This document shows, piece after piece, positions 7,300-42,094 of a stretch of 64,000 nucleotides of DNA. Origin of the DNA: Gekko japonicus (Eukaryota); assembly GCF_001447785.1 (NCBI RefSeq), contig NW_015162482.1, positions 287,930-351,929 on the forward strand, in the 5' to 3' direction. Every line of letters starts with the position of its first letter. Position 1 is the first letter of the stretch. The translations under genes and the position numbers were made by a program. The notes under the pieces are model-generated. The model did no database searches. It was given only the letters and a program-made list of their open reading frames with translations, and was not told the DNA's origin.

Positions 7300-7860
7300 A
7301 AGTGCCACGAGAGGGACTCCTTTTTTGTCCCTGAAGGTGGCAAAGGAAACGAGGCCGCCTCCCTCGATCTACTTTCTTAAAGTAGCCGGATTCTCTAGGA
7401 GCCGCGGTTTTCAGCTATCCGAGGTAAGGAGGACTCTTTCCTGCCTCTAACACAGCCGTAATGGCGGGCGAAGTAGACACAAAGCCGCCACCGGGGTGGC
7501 TCCGCTCCGCTTGAGAGAGGCGCTGCTCTTTGGCCCTTTAATAACAGAAGCGGGAAGGAGGCCGGAGAAGTGCTGACGCTTTCCTGCGGGACCCTTCCTC
7601 AATCGTCTTCGCCCGACCCGGATGTAGAAAGCCGAGAAAAGTGTTACACACAGGCGGGCGGAAGGCGGAAATGGAGGCTTAGAGACAGGCAGCGAAGAGA
7701 GGGGGCAGTGGGAGGGAGGAGCAGCGCCCCCTCTCGTTGCCACGGCAACGGGACCAGGTGAGTTCCCCTTTCGCCTCACATCCAGCATCTCCCTTTCCTT
7801 CGCCTGGGGACCGCGCTCTTCTCCTCCCTCTTCCCGGCATGAAGTGGCTGCTATCCGCCC
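7300..7860 (+). promoter_or_regulatory. DNAJC14: DNAJC14 CpG-island promoter and non-coding exon 1 (donor after 7757)
   Basis: CpG-rich; ETS-type CCGGATG/GCGGAAG/GCGGAAAT and YY1-type AATGGCG motifs; X-box at 7736-7749; strong donor CAG|GTGAGT at 7757/7758. A second possible donor GAG|GTAAGG lies at 7423/7424. TSS not determinable. Confidence 0.75.
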
Positions 7861-8307
7861 CTCTTCAGTCCTCAGTGTGGGTTGGGGTTTTTTAGTATTA
7901 TCGGGGGGGGGGGGGGGGGGGGGATCCTACACTAGTGGGGCCAGAGAGGGACAAAATTCCAGCTAGCCAAGAGGGTTGTGTGTTTATGTGATCTCTTTGA
8001 GTACAGTCAGGCTCTGAAGCCTGTTTTGGTTGTTTTGCAGGTAGAAAGACTGATGATGGCTGTAACTTAATCCTTGTCAAGGCCAGAGTAATTCTGGAGC
8101 CCCAGCACCATGGAGCACCTCAGGTCCGGAGGGCTGTGTGAATCCAAACCAGACCAATGTGGCTTAGCCAGGACTGTTCCTCGTGTTGCTAGCCCTTGTG
8201 CAACTGATAAGTGCTCATTCTCAGGTGATGATGCAGGAAACGGCATGCCCACTGGTGCCTAGATCTCTAAAGGGTGCTGTAGTTCCAAAGTCTGGCCCAG
8301 AAGAGAG

Positions 8308-9543
8308 ATGCCAGTTTTGGAAGCAATGGCAACTTGTGGGCTGGCTCCTAAAAAGGCTGAGACTTCAGGCGGGGAGGGAAATACAAGGGAAACCGAAACT
8401 TCTTGGAAAGGAAGCAGTGAGCAAGATAATGGTGGCTTGCACTTTACTGGCTACAGTGCCCCTGGTGATGAAACTGGTTCTTGTAACTGTCTGGGAGATA
8501 CCTCTGATCCTTCTGGAACTTATTCAGAGAAGGGGCATCATTTGTGTGGCTTTGCTTGTCAGCATCGGGCTTTGGACGCCAAGGAGAAGGATGCATCAAA
8601 GTTACTGCAAGGGGAAGAGGAAGATATCAAAGATGACGTGACGTCAAAGGCCAAGGAGGAACTTCCTGACTATACTAGGGCTCCTGGTGGAAGGAAGGTT
8701 GCTCGGCAGCAAAGGCACCGTTCTGCAGCAAAGGACAAGTGGGAAGGACGATTTGCACTATCTGGAGGGAAGCAGAGGCAAAGTAGGAAGAGGAGCGATG
8801 GTGGGAGGTACCATATCCGAGCTGAGCTACTCAAGCACCTGGAGAGGTTGGCCTCTTTCTGCATCTCTTGCTTCAAATTATTCATCCACCTGATTGTGCA
8901 GGTCACCCACAGGTGTGGTGAGGGTGTGGAAGCTGGTGGGAAGTTCCTCTACTCTTGCTGTTCCTTCAGCCAGTGTGAAATAGACACCATCCAGACCGGC
9001 ATGCAGGCTTGGATCCAGTATGCTAAGCTGGGTTATAGGAAACTAATGCGACAGCTAGGCTCCTGGGCAAGCCTGATGTACCACCTGCTCAAGATGCTTT
9101 GTGCTGTACTTTTTCTGGTCCTCATGCTTATCTTGGGTAGCCTGAGACTCTGTTGGCAGGTCTCCAAGTTAGCCCTGTTCAGCGTTGTGGGTAGGTTGGC
9201 TCACACCAGTCATGGGGCCTGGCTTCTCTCAGCTCTTGACTTGCCCAAAGTTTGGGCTTTCTTCAAACAGAGCAGGACTTACACCTGGGTGGTAAGTCTG
9301 TTGCATAAGTGGCATGACCTCCTTTGGATGCCTAAAGGACTAAGGACCAACCAGCCAGGGGATGCTACTTTCAGTGGGTCTCCTGGTGAATCTGGGCAGT
9401 ATCAACCTGGAGAAGTGGTGGCACGTTTGCTGGCTATGGCACATACCCCTGAAGAAGAGCTCAATCCTTTCCAGGTGCTAGGTCTAGAAGCAACAGCATC
9501 AGATGCGGAGTTGAAGAGAGCTTATCGGCAATTGGCTGTACTG
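8308..9543 (+). CDS. DNAJC14: DNAJC14 exon 2, open coding part (exon acceptor at 8040/8041; a likelier ancestral ATG at 8110 is cut off by TAG 8260-8262)
   Basis: Hydrophobic membrane segments followed by the J-domain start EVVARLLAMAHTPEEELNPFQVLGLEATASDAELKRAYRQLAVL; donor CTG|GTGAGC. Spliced CDS from 8308 is 1950 nt (649 aa); from 8110 it would be 715 aa. Confidence 0.93.
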
Positions 9544-10741
9544 GTGAGCATACCCTTTGAGCTGGAGAAGGCTGAAGTGTGTCTGAGGTGCGAATGCCTG
9601 AGAGCTATGAGGCTCAGTCTGGGAGAGTTATTTGCACAGTTTTCTGTTGCCTTATGCCTGACAATCCTTTCAGTTCACAAACACAACACTGTTCCTTATG
9701 TGGCTTTACAAAGTTGTTTGTCATATACTCTGGGCATATAGGAGAGGGGCCTCTATAACTGGTTGGTGTGGTAATTTGTTTAATATGACTTTGCACAAAG
9801 GGGCAGAGTCCAGGTAGAGTTCTCTAGAAAACTGTCAATGATTCCCAACTTGTAGGTTAAGCAGTCTGCATCATTTTCTTTCATCTCATGTACAATCTCC
9901 CACTGTAGTGACCCTATGGTTACTGTGCTGTTGCGGGAGGGGGGATCAGGCCAAAATGACCACTGTCACAGGCTAAAATTATCACTGGATTGTCCAAGCC
10001 ATTATGTTCCGGAAACTGCTGGCCATGTGTGTATTTTTCTTCAGGTATATCAAAGAACAGTCTGCTGGGGGGCAAGAAATACATGTCAGGTTCTCAGGTT
10101 TACAGCTAAGTTCTAGGATTGCCTGATTGCAGCCCCATCCTTAAACACCTGCTGAGTGGCAAATCGTTCTATTCCTACTTCTACCAGTCAAAGTGTGATG
10201 GGCAAATGAACTGCAGTAGTACTGTATTGGGTGTGGTACAGACTTGTAGGTGCTTATCATAGCAACCTAAAGAGCACCTGAGCTTTTTCTTGACTGAGAC
10301 CTGATATTCTCTTCCATTACCTAAAATCCAGCTGACCACTCTTGCAGCTAGGCATACTTTTGATAAAAGACAATCATCTCTTTCCTTCCCTCTTAACGAT
10401 GCATTTTGTGGAGAGAGGAACCGTGTTGGAGGAAACCTTTCCTTCCTGGCTGAACTCCTTAACAGAGAGTGTGCTGGTATTACGAGCTGGAGGTCCCTTC
10501 TCAAATCTCAGCCTGTCCACTATTGCAGGCAAGCCTCTGCTTCAGCTACCTGACTGGTATGTAATATGTAGATAACAGTCCTGGCCAGTGTTACATGGGT
10601 GTTTAGAATGACTGAGAGAATATGTCTTATGTGCTTCTCCCAAGTGCTCAAAATACCAGTATTGATCAGGGTATCGTTATTATTAACACAATGTAGGCAT
10701 TCTGACTCCTTGTTGGTTTGGGGGATGGGGATCTTGCACAG

Positions 10742-10848
10742 GTTCATCCGGACAAGAATAAGCATCCACAGGCAGAGGAGGCGTTCAAGGTGCTACGGGC
10801 CGCCTGGGATATCGTCAGCAATCCTGAGAGGAGGAAGGAATATGAAAT
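10742..10848 (+). CDS. DNAJC14: DNAJC14 exon 3 (J-domain HPD motif)
   Basis: AG|VHPDKNKHPQAEEAFKVLRAAWDIVSNPERRKEYE|GTAAGT, 107 nt, phase-consistent. Confidence 0.97.
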
Positions 10849-11277
10849 GTAAGTGACTTGAAGTCCATTTGGTTGCCTGATGCTTCAGAATGAGGATCGT
10901 GCAGGGAATACTGTGGTATAGCAGTCAGAGAGTTGGACTAGGGTCTGGGAGACCAGGGTTCAAATTGCCGTTGAGTCAAGAGCCTCACTGCATGACCTTG
11001 GGCCAGTCATTCTCTGCCAGCCAAAGCGAGGTAAGATAGAATAGGAAGTGGAGTTCAATATGCCTTCCTGAGCTTTTTGGGAGAAGAGCTGGGTAAAAAC
11101 ATACTAGATAGATGGACACCAGGAGTACTGATCTGTGGACGGGGAGAAGACATGCAGGGCAGTTCTCAAAATGGGGTCCCTTTCTTTAACAGGAGATGAG
11201 AGAAACTGCAAATGCGCATCTGCTTTGTAACACTTTCTTGTAGGAACAACTCCATAGTAGTTGCCAGTGTTTCAACT

Positions 11278-11556
11278 GCCAGTTTGGTGTAGTGGTTAAG
11301 TGCATGGACTCTACTCTGGGAGAACCGGGTTTGATTCCCCACTCCTCCACTTGCACCTGCTGATGTGACCTTGGGTCAGTCACAAGCTCTGGCACAGCTG
11401 TCCTTGAAAAAGAGCAGTTTGTGTCAGAGTTCTCTCAGCCCCACCCACCTCACAGGGTGTCTGTTGTGGGGAGGGGAAGGGAAAGGAGTTTTTAAACCGC
11501 TCTGAGACTCCAAGTGAAGGGCGGGGTATAAATCCAATCTCTTCTTCTTCTTCTCT
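11278..11556 (+). mobile_element. tRNA-derived SINE (Squam3-like)
   Basis: GCCAGTTTGGTGTAGTGGTTAAG head, GGGTTTGATTCCCC B box, (CTT)n tail. Confidence 0.85.
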
Positions 11557-13026: not shown

Positions 13027-13146
13027 TAAACGCATGGCAGAAACGGAGCTGTCCAAATCAATGAATGAGTTCCTTTCCAAACTGCAGGATGACCTGAAAG
13101 AAGCCATGAACACGATGATGTGTAACAAGTGCCAGGGGAAGCACAA
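13027..13146 (+). CDS. DNAJC14: DNAJC14 exon 4
   Basis: TTTCAG|KRMAETELSKSMNEFLSKLQDDLKEAMNTMMCNKCQGKH|GTAGGT, 120 nt. Confidence 0.97.
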
Positions 13147-14044: not shown

Positions 14045-14205
14045 GAGGTTTGAGATGGACCGTGATCCATTGAATGCCCGCTACTGTGCGGAATGTAGCA
14101 AGCTTCATGCAGCGGAGGAGGGTGACTTCTGGGCTGAATCTAGCATGTTAGGGCTGAAAATCACATATTTTGCCATGATGGATGGAAAGGTTTATGACAT
14201 CACAG
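14045..14205 (+). CDS. DNAJC14: DNAJC14 exon 5 (Jiv90 zinc-binding domain)
   Basis: CAG|[53 protein letters not shown]|GTAATA, 161 nt. Confidence 0.97.
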
Positions 14206-16867: not shown

Positions 16868-16964
16868 AATGGGCTGGCTGCCAGAAAGTGGCAATCTCCC
16901 CAGATACTCATCGGGTTCCATACCACATATCTTTTGGATCAAGGGGCTCTGGAGGACGCCAGAG
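16868..16964 (+). CDS. DNAJC14: DNAJC14 exon 6
   Basis: CAG|(E)[31 protein letters not shown]|GTTAGT, 97 nt. Confidence 0.96.
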
Positions 16965-19089: not shown

Positions 19090-19318
19090 AACTGCGTCAG
19101 ATGGCAATACTGCTTCAGCTGCAGAACTACAGGACTTTTTCAATCGCATCTTTCAAGGAAATCCTGGACAGATGCCGAATGGGAATCTTTTCAGCACACC
19201 CCAACCACCATCCTCAGGGCCTGTGCCAACTCCTCCGCCAAAGGCAGACAATGCTTCCCAGAAGGGCGATTCAAAGCAAAAAAGGCGGAAAAAAGTGCGA
19301 CGCCCCTTTCAGCGCTGA
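19090..19318 (+). CDS. DNAJC14: DNAJC14 last coding exon
   Basis: Pyrimidine tract then CAG|TASDGNTASAAELQDFFNRIFQGNPGQMPNGNLFS...KGDSKQKRRKKVRRPFQR-TGA (19316-19318); the KRRKKVRRPFQR end is characteristic of DNAJC14. Confidence 0.96.
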
Positions 19319-25342: not shown

Positions 25343-26155
25343 TCTCCCTTATATATAAAAGTCGAATGGTGGTGGCACTTCTCTAGAACATTCCACACGC
25401 TCTGGAATTGGTTGGCGTCCTGGTGTGTCACTCAGAATCTGTCCCTATCCACTGGCTGCATTGCTTGAGTCTCGCCTCCAACATTCTAAACAGTTTGCTG
25501 TTCCCCTCCCCCCCATAGCCAGTCAGAACACAGAGGTTATTTGCATATGCAGCCTCATTGGCCTTTGCCTTGGAACACAGAGGTCGTTTGCATATGCAAT
25601 TTGATTGGCTTTTTCCTCTAACATTCTAAACAGTTTGCTGTTCCCCTCCCCCCCATAGCCAGTCAGAACACAGAGGTTATTTGCATATGCAGCCTCATTG
25701 GCCTTTGCCTTGGAACACAGAGGTCGTTTGCATATGCAATTTGATTGGCTTTTTCCTCTAACATTCTAAACAGTTTGCTGTTCCCCTCCCCCCCATAGCC
25801 AGTCAGAACACAGAGGTTATTTGCATATGCAGCCTCATTGGCCTTTGCCTTGGAACACAGAGGTCGTTTGCATATGCAATTTGATTGGCTTTTTCCTCTA
25901 ACATTCTAAACAGTTTGCTGTTCTGAGGTAAAATGTGTCCAGTCTCCAGGTGAGGGCTGGAGATCACTCAAAATTACAACTGTTCTTTAGGTATCAGAGA
26001 TCAGTTTCTCTGGAGAAAATGGTGGACTCAGTGTCATTATACCCTGCTGAGGTCGCCACAGCAAATTGACACTGAGTGTCCAAGGCCGGGGCATCCGCCC
26101 AGAGCCTCTTTCTAGAGCTCATTGTATTTATTTCCACAACGGGCCTTTTTCCTAG
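25343..26155 (+). mobile_element. Non-autonomous Helitron, copy 1
   Basis: Starts A|TC (TCTCCCTTATATATAAAAG) and ends CTAG|T; subterminal hairpin remnant (ATTGT...ACAACGGGCC); no TSD; homology to 51697-52634 stops at these termini. Confidence 0.88.
25481..25923 (+). repeat. Tandem array of 3 identical 140-bp units plus 23 bp, inside the Helitron
   Basis: Units start at 25481, 25621, 25761 and 25901 and are identical by eye; each holds two sub-repeats GAACACAGAGGT..TTTGCATATGCA-N5-ATTGG. Confidence 0.97.
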
Positions 26156-33214: not shown

Positions 33215-35795
33215 TTTTTAAGTACTCGAGGGTACACTTTTATTATTATTTTTTCATTACATACTACAGACATACATACAAACAACACCCAACTACCCCC
33301 AACAACATATAACATCTAACAAGAGACTTTTATCACTTCTTCTGCTTATTAATTTTCTAAATTCATTATCTGTTTTACTAAGCTTATCTTTTCTGTGTTC
33401 TCAAATTACTACATTTATCTATCAGTTGCGTTTACATTATACCAATAATAGAATCTCTTCCAAGTTTCCATTCTGTGCCGGCTCTCAACTCAAGTGTCAG
33501 TTTGTCATTTTCCGCCATTTCAAATAGTTTATTCACGTACTCTTGTTTCGTTGGTATTTCCATTATTTTCCAATATTTGGCACATACTATCCTTGCAGCT
33601 GTCGACATATGAACTATCAAATACCTATCTGCTTTATCAAAGTCTTTCAGAAATATATTCAGTAACAGTATCTCTGGAGTAAATGGGATATTCTTGTTAT
33701 TTTTTCCATTATCTCATGAATCCATCTCCAATACCTCTTTGTAACGTCACATAGCCACCACATGTGATAAAAAGAGCCAATCTTATTTTTACATTTCCAG
33801 CATTTTTCGGAGCAGTTACTATTTTGTTTAGCTAATATATCTGGTGTAATATACCATCTATAAAACATCTTATACATGTTCTCTTTTTATGGCACAGCAT
33901 TAGTTAATTTTATATTCTTCAGCCAAATCTGCTCCCACTCTTCTAAATTAATATTATGGCCTATTTCTTCTAGTTCAATTATTTTCTTATTAAAACCTTG
34001 TTTCTTAACCTTCAAATATATTGATTCCAGTTTCGCTTTCTTCCACCAGGATAATTGTTCTGGTAATTTAAGATTGTCTTTTTTATCCAGAATATCCTGG
34101 TATCTTAACGATTCTTCTCCCATATATACATTGGGTAAGGTAAATGCCTCTAAAGTATAATCAGTCTTGATCTTTTAGTATAAAAATTTTTATGTATAGG
34201 GTCCCATACCTTTAGTAATGCTGCTCTCAGCCAATGCTGCTTAAAATATTTTTGAGAGCCTGCTTTTTCATACCACAGTAAAGCATTCCATCCTAACAGT
34301 AAATCATGGCCCTCAATTTTTAAAAGTCTCTTATCTTCTAAAGTAATCCATTCTTTAATCCATACTAATGCTGCAGCTCTATAATACAGTAACCAATTCG
34401 ACACACCAAACCCCCCTCTTTCTTTTACATCATGTAGCATTTTCTTTAAAACAACAACAACAACAATTTTATTAGGATATATCAGTAAGTCAAACTATAC
34501 ATCATCTTACAATCTGTCTTATATCCTTTTCTCCTAGTATCCCCCCCTTCTGACTTCCCGCAGTGCTCCAACCTCCAGTCCAACTCTTATATTTTCCCCC
34601 TCTTTTTTTTCATTCTTCAATAATAAAATTCTTCAGGTAACATAACCTTTAACTTTTGTTCTTATATATTTAAACTTATTCTAAATGTCCTTCTATCTTC
34701 AATAGTTATCAAAGCAAAATAGATTATTTTTCACTTCCCAATATTTCTCTAAATATTACATCATGTAGCATTTTAAATCTTATTCATGCCCTTTTCCCTT
34801 GCCATATAAACTTGGATGTCATCTGGTCTAATTCTTTAAACAAGTTTTGATTTTGTAATACAGAAATACCGGTAGTTTGAAATAAGAACATCCATCTAGG
34901 TAAAAATGTTCATTTTTATTGTAGCGATTCTTCCCATCATGGAAAGTTGCAGATTTTTCCAGTTGTCCAAGTCTTGTTTAGTTTTTTGTAGCAGTGCATT
35001 ATAGTTGTCTTCATAGAGTGTACTACATTTGTTTGTAACTAATTCCTAGATATTTAGGGTTTTTTTACAATCTGACATCTTGTGATTTCTTGTAACTTCT
35101 CTTTTTGTTTGCCTTCCAAGTTCTTAGTTATAATTTTAGTTTTTTCTACATTTATTTTGAAGCCCACCACTGTTCCATACTCTTCAATCTTATCCATCAA
35201 TGCTCCTGCTGCTTCTATCAGGTTTTCAAGTATTAATGCCACATCATCTGCAAAAGCTAGTATTTTAAAGTGTTCTTTCTTTACTTGAAGTCGAGTTATT
35301 TTACTCTCTCTTCTGATGGCTTCATTCATAACTTCCAGTACCATAATAAACAAAAGTGGGGATAAGGGACATCCTTGCCCCGTACCTATCTGAATCTCAA
35401 AATTATTTGAAAGTTCTCCATTGACTATAACTCTCACTTTTTGTTCACTATATATTGCTTGAATCATAGTAATAAAACTTTCTCCTGCACCTAACATGTG
35501 AAATGTCTCCAGCATAAAAGTCCAATTAACATTGTCAAATGCTTTCTCTGCATCCAGAAAGATTATTGCCATCTGCTTCTCATGATGTAATTCATAGTAA
35601 GCCTTGTTCTCTCACCATATTACAAATATCCCTAAAGGTCAGTGCAATCTGCTCTTCAAAAATATAGTAAAATTCTATCGGGAGTCCATCTGGTCCTGGA
35701 GCTTTCCCTCTATTTTGTCTCTTTATTGCCTTGACCACTTCCATCATTGAAATTTGTTGGTTTAATATTTTTCTTTGTCCTTCTGTAAGTTTTTG
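33215..35795 (-). mobile_element. Decayed L1-clade LINE, 3' part of ORF2 (RT and CCHC domains)
   Basis: Frameshifted ORFs: KAPGPDGLPIEFY, FLDAEKAFDNVNW, GQGCPLSPLLF, LAFADD (35054-35572), ERGGFG, CWKC..GSFYHMWWLC. Confidence 0.93.
34444..34755 (-). mobile_element. 5'-truncated L1-type 3' end nested in the older L1
   Basis: 19-bp TSD TTACATCATGTAGCATTTT (34425-34443 and 34756-34774); pre-insertion site TTTT/AA; AATAAA on the minus strand near 34468. Confidence 0.8.
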
Positions 35796-35796
35796 C

Positions 35797-36383
35797 ACAT
35801 TCCTGGGATCCCAGATCACCGCAGACTGTGACAGCAGCCATGAAATTAAAAGACACCGGCTCCTTGGGAGGAAAGCGATGGCGAACCGACACAGCATGAT
35901 AAAAAGTAGAGACATCACCCTGCCAACAAAAGTCCGCTTGGTCAAAGCAATGGTATTCCCAGTAGTCATGTATGACTGCGAGAGTTGGACTATAAGGAAG
36001 GCCGAGCGCCGAAGAATAGATTCTTTTGAACTATGGTGCTGGAGAAGACTCCTGAGAGTCCCTTGGACTGCAAGGAGATCAAACCAGTCAATCCTAAAAG
36101 AAATCAACCCTGACTGTTCCCTGGAAGGCCAGATAATGAAACTGAAGCTCAAATACTTTGGCTACCAAATGAGCACTCACTGGAGAAGACCCTGATGCTG
36201 GGAAAGATTGAAGGTCAAAGAAAACGGGGATGGCAAAGGATGAGATGGTTAGACAGTTTCATAGATGCAACGAACATGAAGTTGAGTCAACTTCAGAGGG
36301 CGGCGGAAGACCGGAAGGCCTGGCGTGATCTGGTCCATGGGGTCGCAAAGAGCCGGACTCGACTGTGCAACTGAACAACAACA
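35797..36383 (+). mobile_element. RTE-BovB LINE 3' fragment
   Basis: FLGSQITAD..SHEIKR..LLGRKAM..DITLPTKVRLVKAMVFPVVMY..ESWTI..FELWCWRRLLRVPWTARRSNQSILKEI; ends CTGAACAACAAC. Confidence 0.93.
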
Positions 36384-37597: not shown

Positions 37598-37678
37598 NNN
37601 NNNNNNNNNNNNNNNNNNNNNNNNNNNNNNNNNNNNNNNNNNNNNNNNNNNNNNNNNNNNNNNNNNNNNNNNNNNNNN
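37598..37678. other. Assembly gap (N run)
   Basis: Run of n. Confidence 1.
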
Positions 37679-38323
37679 GTGCCTCTGTTGTGGTCCATGC
37701 AAATTCAACATGCCAGGTGACTAAATCCTGGTCCTTACCGAAATCTGATGTGGAGCCCCTGCTTAAAGGAAGAATCTCTGATTCTTACTTTTCAATGTAG
37801 AGAAAGTAGCTTTTAAGTCACCAGTTAAAGGATTAGCCCCATTTTGATTTGCATCTTGTTGGTCATTGTTAAAAGGTGGCTGTCAGACTGCATAGATTAT
37901 TATCATGGGCATGTTTCTGAGAAAACATTCTGCACATGTGGCCTTAAAGCTACCCATGCCAAAGTAAATACACCCAACCAAACCAACCAACCAAAGAACT
38001 CCCAATTGTCTGTCAGAGCTCAGAAGTGGAATTGACAACTTTTTACAAGGATGAGACCGTCCACCACATATAGTGTACATTATCTGTTTCCCCATACATA
38101 TGATCCTGCTTTGCACTCTATTGTCTTCTACTTAAGTAATAATGTCTTCTGCATTGCTTAATGGATCATACATAAAACTTTTGTTTTATTTCAAATTTCT
38201 GTCATTCTTACATTGCTTATTACAGGTCACATCCTACTGATTGCATTGATTTGCACTGTGTAATCCACCTTGAGTCTCAGTGAGAAATGCAGACTATTAA
38301 TAAAGTAAGTACTGAAGTAAACA

Positions 38324-38479
38324 GCGTTCCGTGCGCCTTAGTGTTTAGTCATGCCGGCCACATGACCACGGAAACGTCTTTGGACAGTGCTGGCTCTTCG
38401 GCTTTGAAACGGAGATGAGCACCGCAACCCTAGAGTTGGATTTGACTGGCTTTCGAGCAAGGGAACCTTTACCTTTTTT
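38324..38479 (+). mobile_element. 5'-truncated Sauria SINE
   Basis: Reverse complement of part of 30743-31084; ACCTTT tail; near-identical flanks TACTGA(A/C)GTAAACA. Confidence 0.85.
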
Positions 38480-39127
38480 TACTGACGTAAACACCACGGT
38501 TGAATACAGACATCCACTCATTACCCACAGTGTACCAGTCAGGTATTGTCCTGCTACATGGTGAGAATTTTGGTCAGGAAGGCTCCTGCACTCCTGTCAT
38601 TCCACAAACCATGTAAAACAGAGTTGTTTTCGAGAGGTCTCTGTACAGGTAATAGGGCTAGCTAGACTATAACGGAGTAGTTTGGGAAGGTGCTTTAAGG
38701 GGAAAGGGATTGTGGATTACACCACTATGGATAAGATGTATCATCAGTTTTCTGCATGTATCGCACTGTTGTTTCAGTGTTTTCTGCTGATGTAGTACCA
38801 TTTTTTTCATTATAGCCACACACTGTATCATGCCTACTATGTTATGCTTGCACAGATTTCAGTAATCCTAGCCCTGGTCCATTGGTCATTTGACATTTCA
38901 TATTGATTGTATTGACCTACACATTCTGTGCTTATTAGATGTCTCTTCATGTGGGCTAATAGTGAGTTATACTGTGTAGTTCACTTTGAGTCTCAGTGAG
39001 AAAGGTGGAAGATAAACACCATAAATAAATAAATAGAAATTACCACTCCTTTACATCTCTAGAGGTTTATGATCAGCTCCAGAAGAGTGGCAACATTTTC
39101 CTTGCCGTTTGGCAGGGCAATAGAACA

Positions 39128-39207
39128 NNNNNNNNNNNNNNNNNNNNNNNNNNNNNNNNNNNNNNNNNNNNNNNNNNNNNNNNNNNNNNNNNNNNNNNNN
39201 NNNNNNN
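39128..39207. other. Assembly gap (N run)
   Basis: Run of n. Confidence 1.
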
Positions 39208-39849
39208 GGTGGGAGGAGGCAGGGTGGGGGGTGGGGGGGGGGGGGGGGGGGGGGGGTATCTATGGAGTTTTAAATGCAGTTGCTTCCAGCGGGTAGGGTG
39301 AGCCAGTATCTCCCCCCCGCCCCCAATCAGGAGAAGCCAAGAAAGCTCCTTGCTAATCAAACGCAAGAACCAGACAATGCAAGAAATGAAGGTTGTTTCC
39401 AAAGAAATGAAGAGGGTCTGTTAGCGCGAAAGGATCTAACTTCCCTTCCACTTTCTCTTTCTCCCTCCTCCTCTCCCCCCCCTCCCGCTTTTTGTTCCTT
39501 CTTTGCTGGGGAGAGGGGGAAGGATGTGGGTTTCGGCCGGCCGGCAGGCGCTCGCTGTCCCTGGCCCCTCGGGCCGCGGCTCCCTCTCTCCCTCGCCCGC
39601 CCGCCGCCTCGCCTCCGCCGGCCACCTCCTGAATAGGCGTCTCACCTGGCCGCCTCCCCCCTGCCACGCTCCCTTGCCTCGGCCGCCTTTGACTGTGCCC
39701 AGCCGCGCGGAGCCGGGAGGGGAGGGCAGGGCAGGGAGGGGGGGAGAGGGCAGCGCAGCCCCGCGGCCAGGACCGCCCCCGCCGGCCTCGACCGCGCCGA
39801 GCTTCCCCTCGTCCCGAAGCGAAACAACCACGCCGCGCACGTGGCTCCG

Positions 39850-40792
39850 NNNNNNNNNNNNNNNNNNNNNNNNNNNNNNNNNNNNNNNNNNNNNNNNNNN
39901 NNNNNNNNNNNNNNNNNNNNNNNNNNNNNNNNNNNNNNNNNNNNNNNNNNNNNNNNNNNNNNNNNNNNNNNNNNNNNNNNNNNNNNNNNNNNNNNNNNNN
40001 NNNNNNNNNNNNNNNNNNNNNNNNNNNNNNNNNNNNNNNNNNNNNNNNNNNNNNNNNNNNNNNNNNNNNNNNNNNNNNNNNNNNNNNNNNNNNNNNNNNN
40101 NNNNNNNNNNNNNNNNNNNNNNNNNNNNNNNNNNNNNNNNNNNNNNNNNNNNNNNNNNNNNNNNNNNNNNNNNNNNNNNNNNNNNNNNNNNNNNNNNNNN
40201 NNNNNNNNNNNNNNNNNNNNNNNNNNNNNNNNNNNNNNNNNNNNNNNNNNNNNNNNNNNNNNNNNNNNNNNNNNNNNNNNNNNNNNNNNNNNNNNNNNNN
40301 NNNNNNNNNNNNNNNNNNNNNNNNNNNNNNNNNNNNNNNNNNNNNNNNNNNNNNNNNNNNNNNNNNNNNNNNNNNNNNNNNNNNNNNNNNNNNNNNNNNN
40401 NNNNNNNNNNNNNNNNNNNNNNNNNNNNNNNNNNNNNNNNNNNNNNNNNNNNNNNNNNNNNNNNNNNNNNNNNNNNNNNNNNNNNNNNNNNNNNNNNNNN
40501 NNNNNNNNNNNNNNNNNNNNNNNNNNNNNNNNNNNNNNNNNNNNNNNNNNNNNNNNNNNNNNNNNNNNNNNNNNNNNNNNNNNNNNNNNNNNNNNNNNNN
40601 NNNNNNNNNNNNNNNNNNNNNNNNNNNNNNNNNNNNNNNNNNNNNNNNNNNNNNNNNNNNNNNNNNNNNNNNNNNNNNNNNNNNNNNNNNNNNNNNNNNN
40701 NNNNNNNNNNNNNNNNNNNNNNNNNNNNNNNNNNNNNNNNNNNNNNNNNNNNNNNNNNNNNNNNNNNNNNNNNNNNNNNNNNNNNNNNNNNN
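39850..40792. other. Assembly gap (N run) in the GDF11 upstream CpG island
   Basis: Run of n. Confidence 1.
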
Positions 40793-40878
40793 GGGCGAGC
40801 GAGCGGGGCTGGAATGTGTGGCGGGGACACCCGGGGGGCGCCGGACTCCTCTCTCTCCCTCGCGCGGTCCCCCTCTGG

Positions 40879-40962
40879 TGACAGCCCTTGCGCCAGGAGA
40901 TCTTTTGTTGCCTCCGCAGCCAATCAAGGCTTTTGACGACACAGTCCGGTCGGGATATAAAA
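40879..40962 (+). promoter_or_regulatory. GDF11: GDF11 proximal promoter: TGACAG, CCAAT box, half-CRE, TATA box
   Basis: TGACAG 40879-40884, AGCCAATCA 40918-40926, TGACGACAC 40934-40942, TATAAAA 40956-40962; about 240 bp upstream of the ATG. Confidence 0.8.
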
Positions 40963-41201
40963 GGAGAGTCCTTCTTTCTTCGGGCCCCCCTCCTCTCCTT
41001 CCCCCAACCGGCAAGTCACCCACCGTCGCCAGCCCCCCAGAACTTCCGAGCCGGCACCGGCACACACCCCCCGCCGCCTCCCCGCGGCCAAGCCGGAGAG
41101 GTCGCTGCCTGGCTGGCTGGCCGGCTGCTCCGAGAGGGGGCGAGGGCGAGGGCGAGGGCGCGAGAGGGCTGGGTGGGGGACGGGGGAGCCGCGAGCCAGA
41201 C

Positions 41202-41604
41202 ATGCTGGTGCCCCGGTCGCCTGCTTTCTTGTGCTGCCTGGTCCTGTGGCTGGAGCTGTGCGGCGGGGAGCCGGCCGAGCGCGGGGCGGACGGGGCGCCC
41301 ACCGAGGGGGTCCCCCTGGCGACGGCGGCGGAGGAGCCGGGCTGCCCGGTGTGCCTGTGGCGGAAGCACAGCAAGGAGATGCGGCTGGAGAGCATCAAGT
41401 CGCAGATCCTCAGCAAGCTGCGGCTCAAGGAGGCGCCCAACATCACCCGGGAGGTGGTGAACCAGCTCCTGCCCAAGGCCCCCCCGCTGCAGCAGATCTT
41501 GGACTTGCACGACTTCCAGGGAGACTCCTTCCAGCACGACGACTACCTGGAGGAGGACGAGTACCACGCCACCACCGAGACTGTCATCAGCATGGCACAA
41601 GAAA
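41202..41604 (+). CDS. GDF11: Growth differentiation factor 11, exon 1 (signal peptide and N-terminal prodomain)
   Basis: MLVPRSPAFLCCLVLWLELCGG...GCPVCLWRKHSKEMRLESIKSQILSKLRLKEAPNITREVVNQLLPKAPPLQQILDLHDFQGD...LEEDEYHATTETVISMAQE, phase-1 donor A|GTGAGT. These residues match GDF11 rather than myostatin. Confidence 0.95.
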
Positions 41605-41656
41605 GTGAGTCCCCGGCGGCTTCTTCCTTTGTTAACGGGCCGGCGGGGGAGCGAGC

Positions 41657-42094
41657 NNNNNNNNNNNNNNNNNNNNNNNNNNNNNNNNNNNNNNNNNNNN
41701 NNNNNNNNNNNNNNNNNNNNNNNNNNNNNNNNNNNNNNNNNNNNNNNNNNNNNNNNNNNNNNNNNNNNNNNNNNNNNNNNNNNNNNNNNNNNNNNNNNNN
41801 NNNNNNNNNNNNNNNNNNNNNNNNNNNNNNNNNNNNNNNNNNNNNNNNNNNNNNNNNNNNNNNNNNNNNNNNNNNNNNNNNNNNNNNNNNNNNNNNNNNN
41901 NNNNNNNNNNNNNNNNNNNNNNNNNNNNNNNNNNNNNNNNNNNNNNNNNNNNNNNNNNNNNNNNNNNNNNNNNNNNNNNNNNNNNNNNNNNNNNNNNNNN
42001 NNNNNNNNNNNNNNNNNNNNNNNNNNNNNNNNNNNNNNNNNNNNNNNNNNNNNNNNNNNNNNNNNNNNNNNNNNNNNNNNNNNNNNNNNNNNNN
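41657..42094. other. Assembly gap (N run)
   Basis: Run of n. Confidence 1.

What the first reader, a model, noticed from the sequence alone, without database searches (positions are those of the whole stretch)
8110..8328. Single in-frame TAG splits the DNAJC14 N-terminus into a 50-codon upstream ORF
Seen: ATG 8110 has a strong Kozak context (GCACCATGG) and is in frame with the main ORF. It reads MEHLRSGGLCESKPDQCGLARTVPRVASPCATDKCSFSGDDAGNGMPTGA, then TAG (8260-8262), then ISKGCCSSKVWPRRE-M8308 with no other stop. With the TAG read as sense the protein is 715 aa, close to the roughly 700-aa human protein, and SFSG..AG..P.G resembles the human N-terminus as I recall it. The TAG-ATC context is not a known readthrough signal. 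A 5-codon uORF also lies at 8053-8070. Inference: a base-call error, a segregating nonsense allele, or a fixed change that forces re-initiation or leaky scanning at 8308/8326. The last case would give an N-truncated, low-dose DNAJC14 with J and Jiv90 domains intact. DNAJC14/Jiv is a known dose-sensitive cofactor of pestivirus NS2-3 processing and affects flavivirus replication. All downstream exons and splice sites are intact, which argues against a pseudogene.
Basis: partly seen in the sequence, partly recalled or inferred. Interest (0 to 1): 0.7.

Follow-up and report, generated by a model that had tools for sequence, protein, structure and literature searches.

The report
Gecko DNAJC14 start codon moved downstream
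The stop codon near the start of this gecko chaperone gene is real and shared with related geckos, and the gene likely makes a working protein 66 amino acids shorter from newer downstream start codons, leaving the old beginning as a leftover upstream reading frame; this is an ordinary kind of evolutionary change.

Summary
In detail: ATG 8110, in-frame TAG 8260-8262, 715 codons if read through. It is not a base-call error or private allele. Ten runs from four studies hold all sampled words of the exon. A related gecko encodes a 46-aa peptide ending at the same codon (P0082), and an RNA contig of another relative lists no difference there. The 66 upstream codons are the ancestral squamate N-terminus (78 bits vs ≤4 shuffled); the stop column is mostly Gln in other squamates, so CAG→TAG is inferred. 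The 649-aa ORF from ATG 8308 is identical to the Gekko japonicus RefSeq protein. All 10 gecko orthologues aligned (three families, one clade) start there and carry a second Met (8326) that no other squamate has. J and Jiv90 regions are 93-94% invariant among geckos, and the gene is single-copy. Best reading: a gecko-lineage start shift, with the old N-terminus now a uORF and the short protein made by re-initiation or leaky scanning (inferred; no ribosome data). Readthrough, editing and a splice bypass have no support but were tested weakly. Low dose and any virus link are untested. Interest is low to moderate.

The parts
7686..7757 (+). Non-coding exon 1 (5' end not fixed; some reads reach into the 7548-7671 bin); donor GT at 7758
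   Evidence: Joint 7757>8041 in raw RNA reads of X21 (3) and X23 (2) and in a contig of X19
8041..9543 (+). Exon 2: leader, relic N-terminal frame and first 412 codons of the main ORF
8053..8070 (+). Short uORF (AUG 8053 weak context, AUG 8056 strong context); the 8056 AUG and the stop are kept in relative X18, the 8053 AUG is not
   Evidence: table 5c
8110..8262 (+). 50-codon uORF = ancestral DNAJC14 N-terminus, strong start context
   Evidence: counterpart P0082 in another gecko
8260..8262 (+). In-frame TAG at codon 51; column is Gln in 7 of 14 non-gecko squamates with a residue there (His 2, Arg 3, Pro 1, Ser 1)
8245..8262 (+). Inner in-frame AUG giving a 5-codon mini-uORF that ends at the same TAG; Met at this column also in several non-gecko squamates
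8228..8641 (+). Out-of-frame 137-codon ORF overlapping the main start; its stop is changed in X18 and X19, no Pfam hit
8263..8307 (+). 15-codon open spacer, homologous to coding sequence of other squamates (10 of 15 identical to P0089)
8308..8310 (+). Annotated start of the 649-aa protein (-3 G, +4 C), shared by 10 of 10 gecko proteins aligned
8326..8328 (+). Second in-frame AUG, strong context (-3 G, +4 G); Met in 10 of 10 gecko proteins, 0 of 14 non-gecko squamates with a residue there
10742..10848 (+). Exon 3 (J domain, aa 387-447 of 649, spans exons 2-3)
13027..13146 (+). Exon 4
   Evidence: loose read ends at 10848 continue into it
14045..14205 (+). Exon 5 (part of Jiv90, aa 474-562)
16868..16964 (+). 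Exon 6
19090..19318 (+). Last coding exon to the stop codon

Best explanation
The TAG is a real stop shared with related geckos that cuts off the ancestral first 66 codons of DNAJC14, and the gene likely stays functional because ribosomes are predicted to start at the gecko-specific AUGs at 8308/8326 by re-initiation or leaky scanning, making a protein of 649 or 643 aa. Inferred history: the ancestral squamate gene started at the 8110-equivalent. The gecko stem lineage gained two downstream in-frame AUGs, and a CAG>TAG change (or, in families not seen as DNA, possibly another lesion) closed the upstream frame. The poorly conserved N-terminus was dispensable, so the change was tolerated. The mRNA likely escapes decay in part because the stop lies 150 nt from the start. 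Shown: the stop, its sharing, the homology, the gecko-wide short protein models, conservation of J/Jiv90, spliced mRNA. Inferred: which AUG is used, by which route, at what level, and the order of events.
For: Stop is real: 10 of 20 indexed holder runs, from 4 studies of this organism, hold a share of 1.00 of 151 sampled words over 8041-9545. Raw reads of 4 runs list 4 variant sites in exon 2, none at 8260-8262, at depth about 0-2.5. Stop is shared: Logan peptide P0082 (46 aa, 41 of 46 identical) ends at the same codon; the X18 RNA contig (81 differences over 8074-9545) lists differences at 8255 and 8297 but none at 8110-8112 or 8260-8262. Long form ancestral: 11 of 18 non-gecko squamate proteins carry the full extension, and turtle N-termini also match. 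Short form gecko-wide: 10 of 10 aligned gecko proteins start MPVLE/MPALE; the 9 placed in the tree form one clade, 100/99. Gene functional: single copy, spliced, 84 of 90 and 103 of 110 columns invariant over aa 371-460 and 461-570 in 8 geckos, against 32 of 66 at the N-terminus. 0-fold sites of the main ORF differ less than 4-fold sites from X18 (8 of 264 vs 9 of 93, p=0.019). Human constructs lacking the first 249-348 aa keep activity in an overexpression assay (PMC3020928, passages). Start-proximal stops often escape NMD, and ATRX R37X yields about 20% truncated protein by re-initiation (PMC9661723, PMC12776119, passages).
Against: No ribosome profiling or proteomics shows the start used. 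Seven upstream AUGs lie in exon 2 before 8308, two in strong context, so plain scanning would be inefficient. The relic frame has not decayed more than the coding stretch after it (28 of 50 and 10 of 15 vs 30 of 61 identical to P0089), and its 0-fold divergence from X18 (6 of 110) cannot be told from either main-ORF 0-fold or 4-fold sites (p=0.37, p=0.29). For Eublepharis, Euleptes, Sphaerodactylus, Paroedura, Heteronotia and Gekko kuhli only the annotated protein start was seen, not the DNA, so the same TAG is not shown there. The table was cut (40 rows shown, 132 not); that X18's list is complete up to 8724 is my inference from its layout. Invariance of Met 8326 is weak evidence, since 48% of columns nearby are invariant. 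PMC12776119 finds that downstream AUGs do not predict the NMD-free zone, which ends at codon 22-25 in some genes.
Confidence: 0.8

Rival explanations
1. Transcript-level bypass: a minor or tissue-specific mRNA uses a later acceptor (the TAG itself could serve as the YAG, so exon 2 would begin at 8263) or a later start site, removing all upstream AUGs so that 8308 is the first AUG.
For: CAG and TAG both fit an acceptor. RefSeq lists two accessions for the one 649-aa protein, which suggests 5' variants. Only 5 raw junction reads were seen, so a minor isoform is not excluded.
Against: The only exon 1-2 joint listed is 7757>8041, in raw reads and in relatives' contigs. The tract before 8263 has 10 of 17 pyrimidines and 3 T, within the bulk of 53 YAG sites in exon 2, against 12-16 for five of six true acceptors; one true acceptor has only 6.
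Confidence: 0.09
2. Functional readthrough or A-to-I recoding of the TAG yields some full-length 715-aa protein, with the short form as the second isoform.
For: The spacer stays open and in frame here and in X18, the 12-nt deletion in relatives keeps the frame, and the relic frame is as conserved as the adjacent coding stretch.
Against: Context is UAG-AUC. In mammalian reporters median UAG readthrough was 0.081%, and the greatest genomic bias is for +4 purines (PMC5829715, passages). No unusual structure over 8041-8420 (z 0.46). No A>G listed at 8261 in RNA reads or the X18 contig (low depth). Gain of two new AUGs in geckos is explained better by a start shift.
Confidence: 0.06
3. The uORF is kept by selection as a translational brake or stress switch (short uORF 8056, long uORF 8110, overlapping out-of-frame ORF 8228) that sets a low DNAJC14 dose. 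This adds to the best explanation rather than replacing it.
For: AUGs 8056, 8110, 8157, 8228, 8231, 8245 and the TAG show no listed change in X18, and 8074-8119 has no listed difference. DNAJC14 amount matters for virus assays in mammalian cells (PMC3020928, PMC9364808, passages).
Against: At about 6% divergence such retention is expected by chance. The overlapping ORF's stop is not kept in X18/X19. Shortened N-termini are annotated in several other squamates too, which points to plain dispensability. No paper found on DNAJC14 uORF control.
Confidence: 0.15
4. Base-call error or a segregating nonsense allele in the sequenced animal.
For: Raw-read depth at the codon was too low to call homozygosity. 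The DNA contigs of X15 break at 8248-8261.
Against: Same stop position in another gecko, no listed change in X18, full word share in 10 runs from 4 studies. The X15 breaks fall at GATC sites (8262, 9012), as expected of a restriction-ligation library (my inference).
Confidence: 0.01
5. Pseudogene.
For: A stop at codon 51 behind a strong start.
Against: Only copy found; spliced; intact 649-aa ORF; J/Jiv90 regions 93-94% invariant across geckos.
Confidence: 0.01

Closest known systems
DNAJC14 (DRIP78/Jiv) orthologues; Gekko japonicus XP_015261378.1
   Same: Main ORF identical, 649 of 649 aa; Pfam DnaJ PF00226 and Jiv90 PF14901 above cut-off.
   Different: Lacks the about 66-aa N-terminal stretch of skinks, lacertids, Rhineura and iguanians. 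The annotation records the short protein; I found no text noting the relic frame.
Start-proximal nonsense alleles rescued by re-initiation (ATRX R37X, beta-globin exon 1 stops; PMC9661723, passages)
   Same: Early stop about 150 nt from the AUG, in-frame AUGs close downstream, N-truncated product expected.
   Different: Those are human disease alleles; this one is shared between species and goes with AUGs gained in the lineage. Re-initiation is not shown here.
Conserved alternative downstream in-frame AUGs (PMC3025576, abstract)
   Same: Downstream in-frame AUGs act as alternative starts under selection.
   Different: There the first AUG is weak and its frame open; here the first AUG is strong and its frame is closed.
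Programmed stop-codon readthrough and 'pseudo-pseudogenes' (recalled; D. sechellia Ir75a)
   Same: In-frame stop in an otherwise intact single-copy gene.
   Different: No leaky context, no 3' structure, and an alternative start exists.
ATF4/GCN4-type uORF control (named in PMC9661723, passages; mechanism details recalled)
   Same: Short uORF followed by longer and overlapping uORFs.
   Different: The overlapping ORF's end is not conserved; no stress data.

Membership tests
DNAJC14 orthologue | J domain followed by Jiv90 domain | tested here: met
   PF00226 aa 387-447, PF14901 aa 474-562
DNAJC14 orthologue | Groups with named squamate DNAJC14; single copy | tested here: met
Start-codon shift with CDS-derived uORF | Upstream frame homologous to the coding N-terminus of outgroups | tested here: met
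   78.1 bits vs 4.2 best shuffle; turtles also match
Start-codon shift with CDS-derived uORF | Closing lesion fixed or shared across species | tested here: met
   P0082 ends at the same codon; no listed change in X18. Shown only for close (gekkonid-clade) relatives.
Start-codon shift with CDS-derived uORF | Derived downstream in-frame AUG shared by the lineage | tested here: met
   10 of 10 gecko proteins aligned; Met at 8326-equivalent in 0 of 14, at 8308-equivalent in 2 of 14 non-geckos with a residue there
Start-codon shift with CDS-derived uORF | Initiation at the downstream AUG in vivo | not testable with these tools
   Needs ribosome profiling or N-terminomics
Start-codon shift with CDS-derived uORF | Relaxed amino-acid constraint upstream of the new start | tested here: inconclusive
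   0-fold 6 of 110 vs main 8 of 264 (p=0.37) and 4-fold 9 of 93 (p=0.29)
Programmed readthrough | Leaky stop context (UGA, +4 C; TMV-type UAG-CAA) | tested here: not met
   UAG-AUC; PMC5829715 passages
Programmed readthrough | Stimulatory 3' RNA structure | tested here: not met
   z 0.46 for 8041-8420; one window only
A-to-I recoded amber codon | A>G at 8261 in RNA | tested here: inconclusive
   None listed, but depth about 0-2.5 and a 3-read threshold; none listed in the X18 contig
Pseudogene | Decay of downstream ORF, loss of constraint or expression | tested here: not met

The most novel reading that the evidence does not exclude
Geckos turned the former N-terminus of DNAJC14 into a selected regulatory uORF, or a low-level recoded stop, that throttles or stress-gates a dose-sensitive chaperone which is also a Flaviviridae cofactor in mammals: a uORF born from the gene's own coding sequence and held across a whole reptile group.
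Probability: 0.15. Interest if true: 0.55.

Novelty: new member of a known kind. Interest (0 to 1): 0.27.

Why it matters
It is a clean natural case of an early nonsense change becoming fixed because downstream starts arose, with both states alive in related lizards. That allows a direct comparison of how a leader with seven upstream AUGs still supplies a conserved protein. It also warns that an in-frame stop near a 5' end need not be an assembly error or a gene loss. The protein model itself is already in RefSeq, and the lost segment is poorly conserved, so the biological consequence is probably small.

Tried and rejected
Raw reads: too shallow at 8260 to genotype or to see minor splice forms. 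X15 contigs: no cover at 8248-8261, uninformative for the T and A of the codon; X20 ends at 8254; an X19-only difference would not show in the cut table. A search for longer proteins with the 66-codon frame found none, but it also missed known skink proteins, so it is weak. The representative search gave P0082 plus 3 multi-stretch hits that I took as chance and did not examine. The Sphaerodactylus model P0088, which starts further downstream, was left out of the gecko count. P0003 and P0086 look like one species, so the 10 gecko proteins are probably 9 taxa. RNA folding: nothing. Mammalian N-terminal likeness not above shuffles. Pfam on 40 other ORFs of the window gave only one LINE-type RT, so synteny was not established. 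Literature: DNAJC14 + 'upstream open reading frame' 2 listings, off topic; + 'uORF' 0; + 'gecko' 1, off topic; pestivirus + gecko + reptile 9 listings, none on DNAJC14 by title; the library lacks most subscription papers and no supplements were read. Earlier findings of the scan: none. Structure prediction was not run; it would not decide the start site.

Full report
Observation. The window holds a seven-exon DNAJC14 on the + strand. ATG 8110 opens a 50-codon frame closed by TAG 8260-8262; 15 open codons follow, then ATG 8308 and ATG 8326. The spliced ORF from 8308 is 649 aa and identical to Gekko japonicus XP_015261378.1 (P0085); with the 66 upstream codons it would be 715. Pfam finds DnaJ (aa 387-447) and Jiv90 (aa 474-562). 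One match each was found in G000 for the 5' region and for exon 5. RNA reads confirm the joints 7757>8041 and 9543>10742.

Is the stop real? Ten of 20 indexed holder runs, from four studies of this organism and none flagged as the possible source, hold a share of 1.00 of 151 sampled 31-mers over 8041-9545. That some sampled word spans the codon is my inference (about 3% chance that none does if sampling is random). Raw reads of four runs showed four variant sites in exon 2 and none at the codon, but depth there was only about 0-2.5. Relatives decide it. A search with the 50-aa peptide returned 1 of 1 candidates, P0082, a 46-aa Logan peptide 41 of 46 identical, with a 4-residue deletion, ending at the same codon. 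An RNA contig of organism B (X18; 81 differences over 8074-9545) has an in-frame 12-nt deletion and lists differences at 8255 and 8297 but none at either codon. That table is cut at 40 rows, and I infer from its layout that X18's list is complete to 8724. P0082 differs from X18 at several codons, so it is a further lineage. Error and private allele are therefore rejected.

What the upstream frame is. It is the ancestral N-terminus: 78.1 bits against a profile of 11 non-gecko squamate N-termini (best shuffle 4.2), with turtles also above shuffles and mammals not. At the stop column 7 of 14 non-gecko squamates have Gln, and 13 of 14 have Gln, His, Arg or Pro, all of which C-starting codons can encode, so CAG>TAG is inferred.

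Distribution. All five gecko-like top hits covered 86% of the read-through query, while many other lizards covered 99-100%. With cluster members, 10 of 10 gecko proteins aligned (Gekko japonicus, G. kuhli, Heteronotia, Paroedura, Euleptes, Sphaerodactylus, Eublepharis, three Logan entries) begin at the 8308-equivalent and keep Met at the 8326-equivalent. A second Sphaerodactylus model that starts further on was left out. The nine placed in a tree form one clade, 100/99, with the root between turtles and squamates. No non-gecko has the second Met (0 of 14 with a residue); two have the first. In geckos the residues flanking the second Met imply a purine at -3 and G at +4 throughout, which is suggestive only, since 32 of 66 nearby columns are invariant anyway. 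For families outside the close relatives I saw only annotated starts, not DNA, so the same TAG is not shown there. Seven of 18 non-gecko models also have shorter or different N-termini (Elgaria, Hemicordylus, Candoia, Thamnophis, Salvator, P0017, and the divergent P0020), by annotation only, which points to a dispensable region.

Is the gene alive? Among eight full-length gecko proteins, aa 371-460 and 461-570 are 93% and 94% invariant. Against X18, 0-fold sites of the main ORF differ at 8 of 264 and pooled 4-fold sites at 9 of 93 (p=0.019). The relic frame lies in between (6 of 110) and cannot be told from either, so neither relaxed nor continuing constraint is shown.

How it most likely works (inferred). 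Seven AUGs precede 8308 in exon 2; 8056 and 8110 are in strong context. Ribosomes would reach 8308/8326 by re-initiation after the uORFs ending at 8070 or 8262 (the inner AUG 8245 gives a 5-codon mini-uORF 45 nt upstream of 8308), or by leaky scanning. The stop lies 150 nt from the AUG, at the edge of the zone where NMD is often weak; ATRX R37X is a human parallel with about 20% truncated protein (PMC9661723, passages). A preprint cautions that this zone varies from about 22 to 100 codons and is not predicted by downstream AUGs (PMC12776119, passages). Human DNAJC14 lacking 249-348 N-terminal residues stays active in an overexpression assay (PMC3020928, passages), so losing 66 is plausible. 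Confidence in the start shift is about 0.8. The route and the protein level are unmeasured.

Rivals. A splice or promoter bypass (the TAG could be an acceptor) has no read support and an unremarkable pyrimidine tract, but junction depth was 5 reads. Readthrough or editing lacks a leaky context or structure but is not excluded, given the conserved open spacer. A selected regulatory role for the uORFs is possible; their retention in X18 is what about 6% divergence would allow by chance.

Known and new. The short protein is already annotated. Searches for DNAJC14 with uORF, upstream open reading frame or gecko found nothing relevant, within a library that lacks most subscription papers. The kind of event, a start shift with conserved downstream AUGs, is known (PMC3025576, abstract). 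The pestivirus cofactor role is real in mammalian cells and maps to Jiv90 (PMC9364808, passages), but nothing ties the gecko change to viruses (listing only). Verdict: real, old, probably benign; a new example of a known kind; interest 0.27.

Noticed in passing
window 7419-7429: A good donor-like site (GAG|GTAAGG, GT at 7424) upstream of exon 1 may mark an alternative first exon; none of the four raw runs covered 7300-7547. RefSeq lists two accessions for the one protein.
   Followed up: partly
window 8100, 8370, 8392, 8578, 10795: Within-species variants in RNA reads; 8392 (Thr>Ala) and 8578 (Ala>Ser) change residues, 8100 lies 10 nt before the old start.
   Followed up: partly
window 8383-8385 (relatives X18, X19; P0087): One gecko lineage has a third in-frame Met at codon 92, the column where the Hemicordylus model starts and close to where snake models start.
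   Followed up: partly
P0012, P0017, P0018, P0019, P0021, P0022 and snake cluster 10: Several non-gecko squamates are annotated with shorter DNAJC14 N-termini (the snakes of cluster 10 that I read start about 93 codons in), suggesting repeated erosion of this region; DNA not seen.
   Followed up: partly
window 7796-8043: RNA reads of X21 and X24 cover intron 1 at about 1x, suggesting retention or an intronic start.
   Followed up: no
window 35057-35611 (-), flanks about 33400-36200: Fragmented LINE-type reverse transcriptase (PF00078, E 4.7e-23).
   Followed up: no
window 25523-25905: Two identical ORF translations 140 bases apart, indicating a short tandem duplication or an assembly artefact.
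   Followed up: no
window 37598-42094: Four runs of N, beside a GC-rich, ORF-dense repeat-like stretch to about 43200.
   Followed up: no
window about 10920-10965 and 11280-11540: Interspersed repeat in intron 3 that draws reads from other loci; looks like a squamate SINE (label recalled).
   Followed up: no
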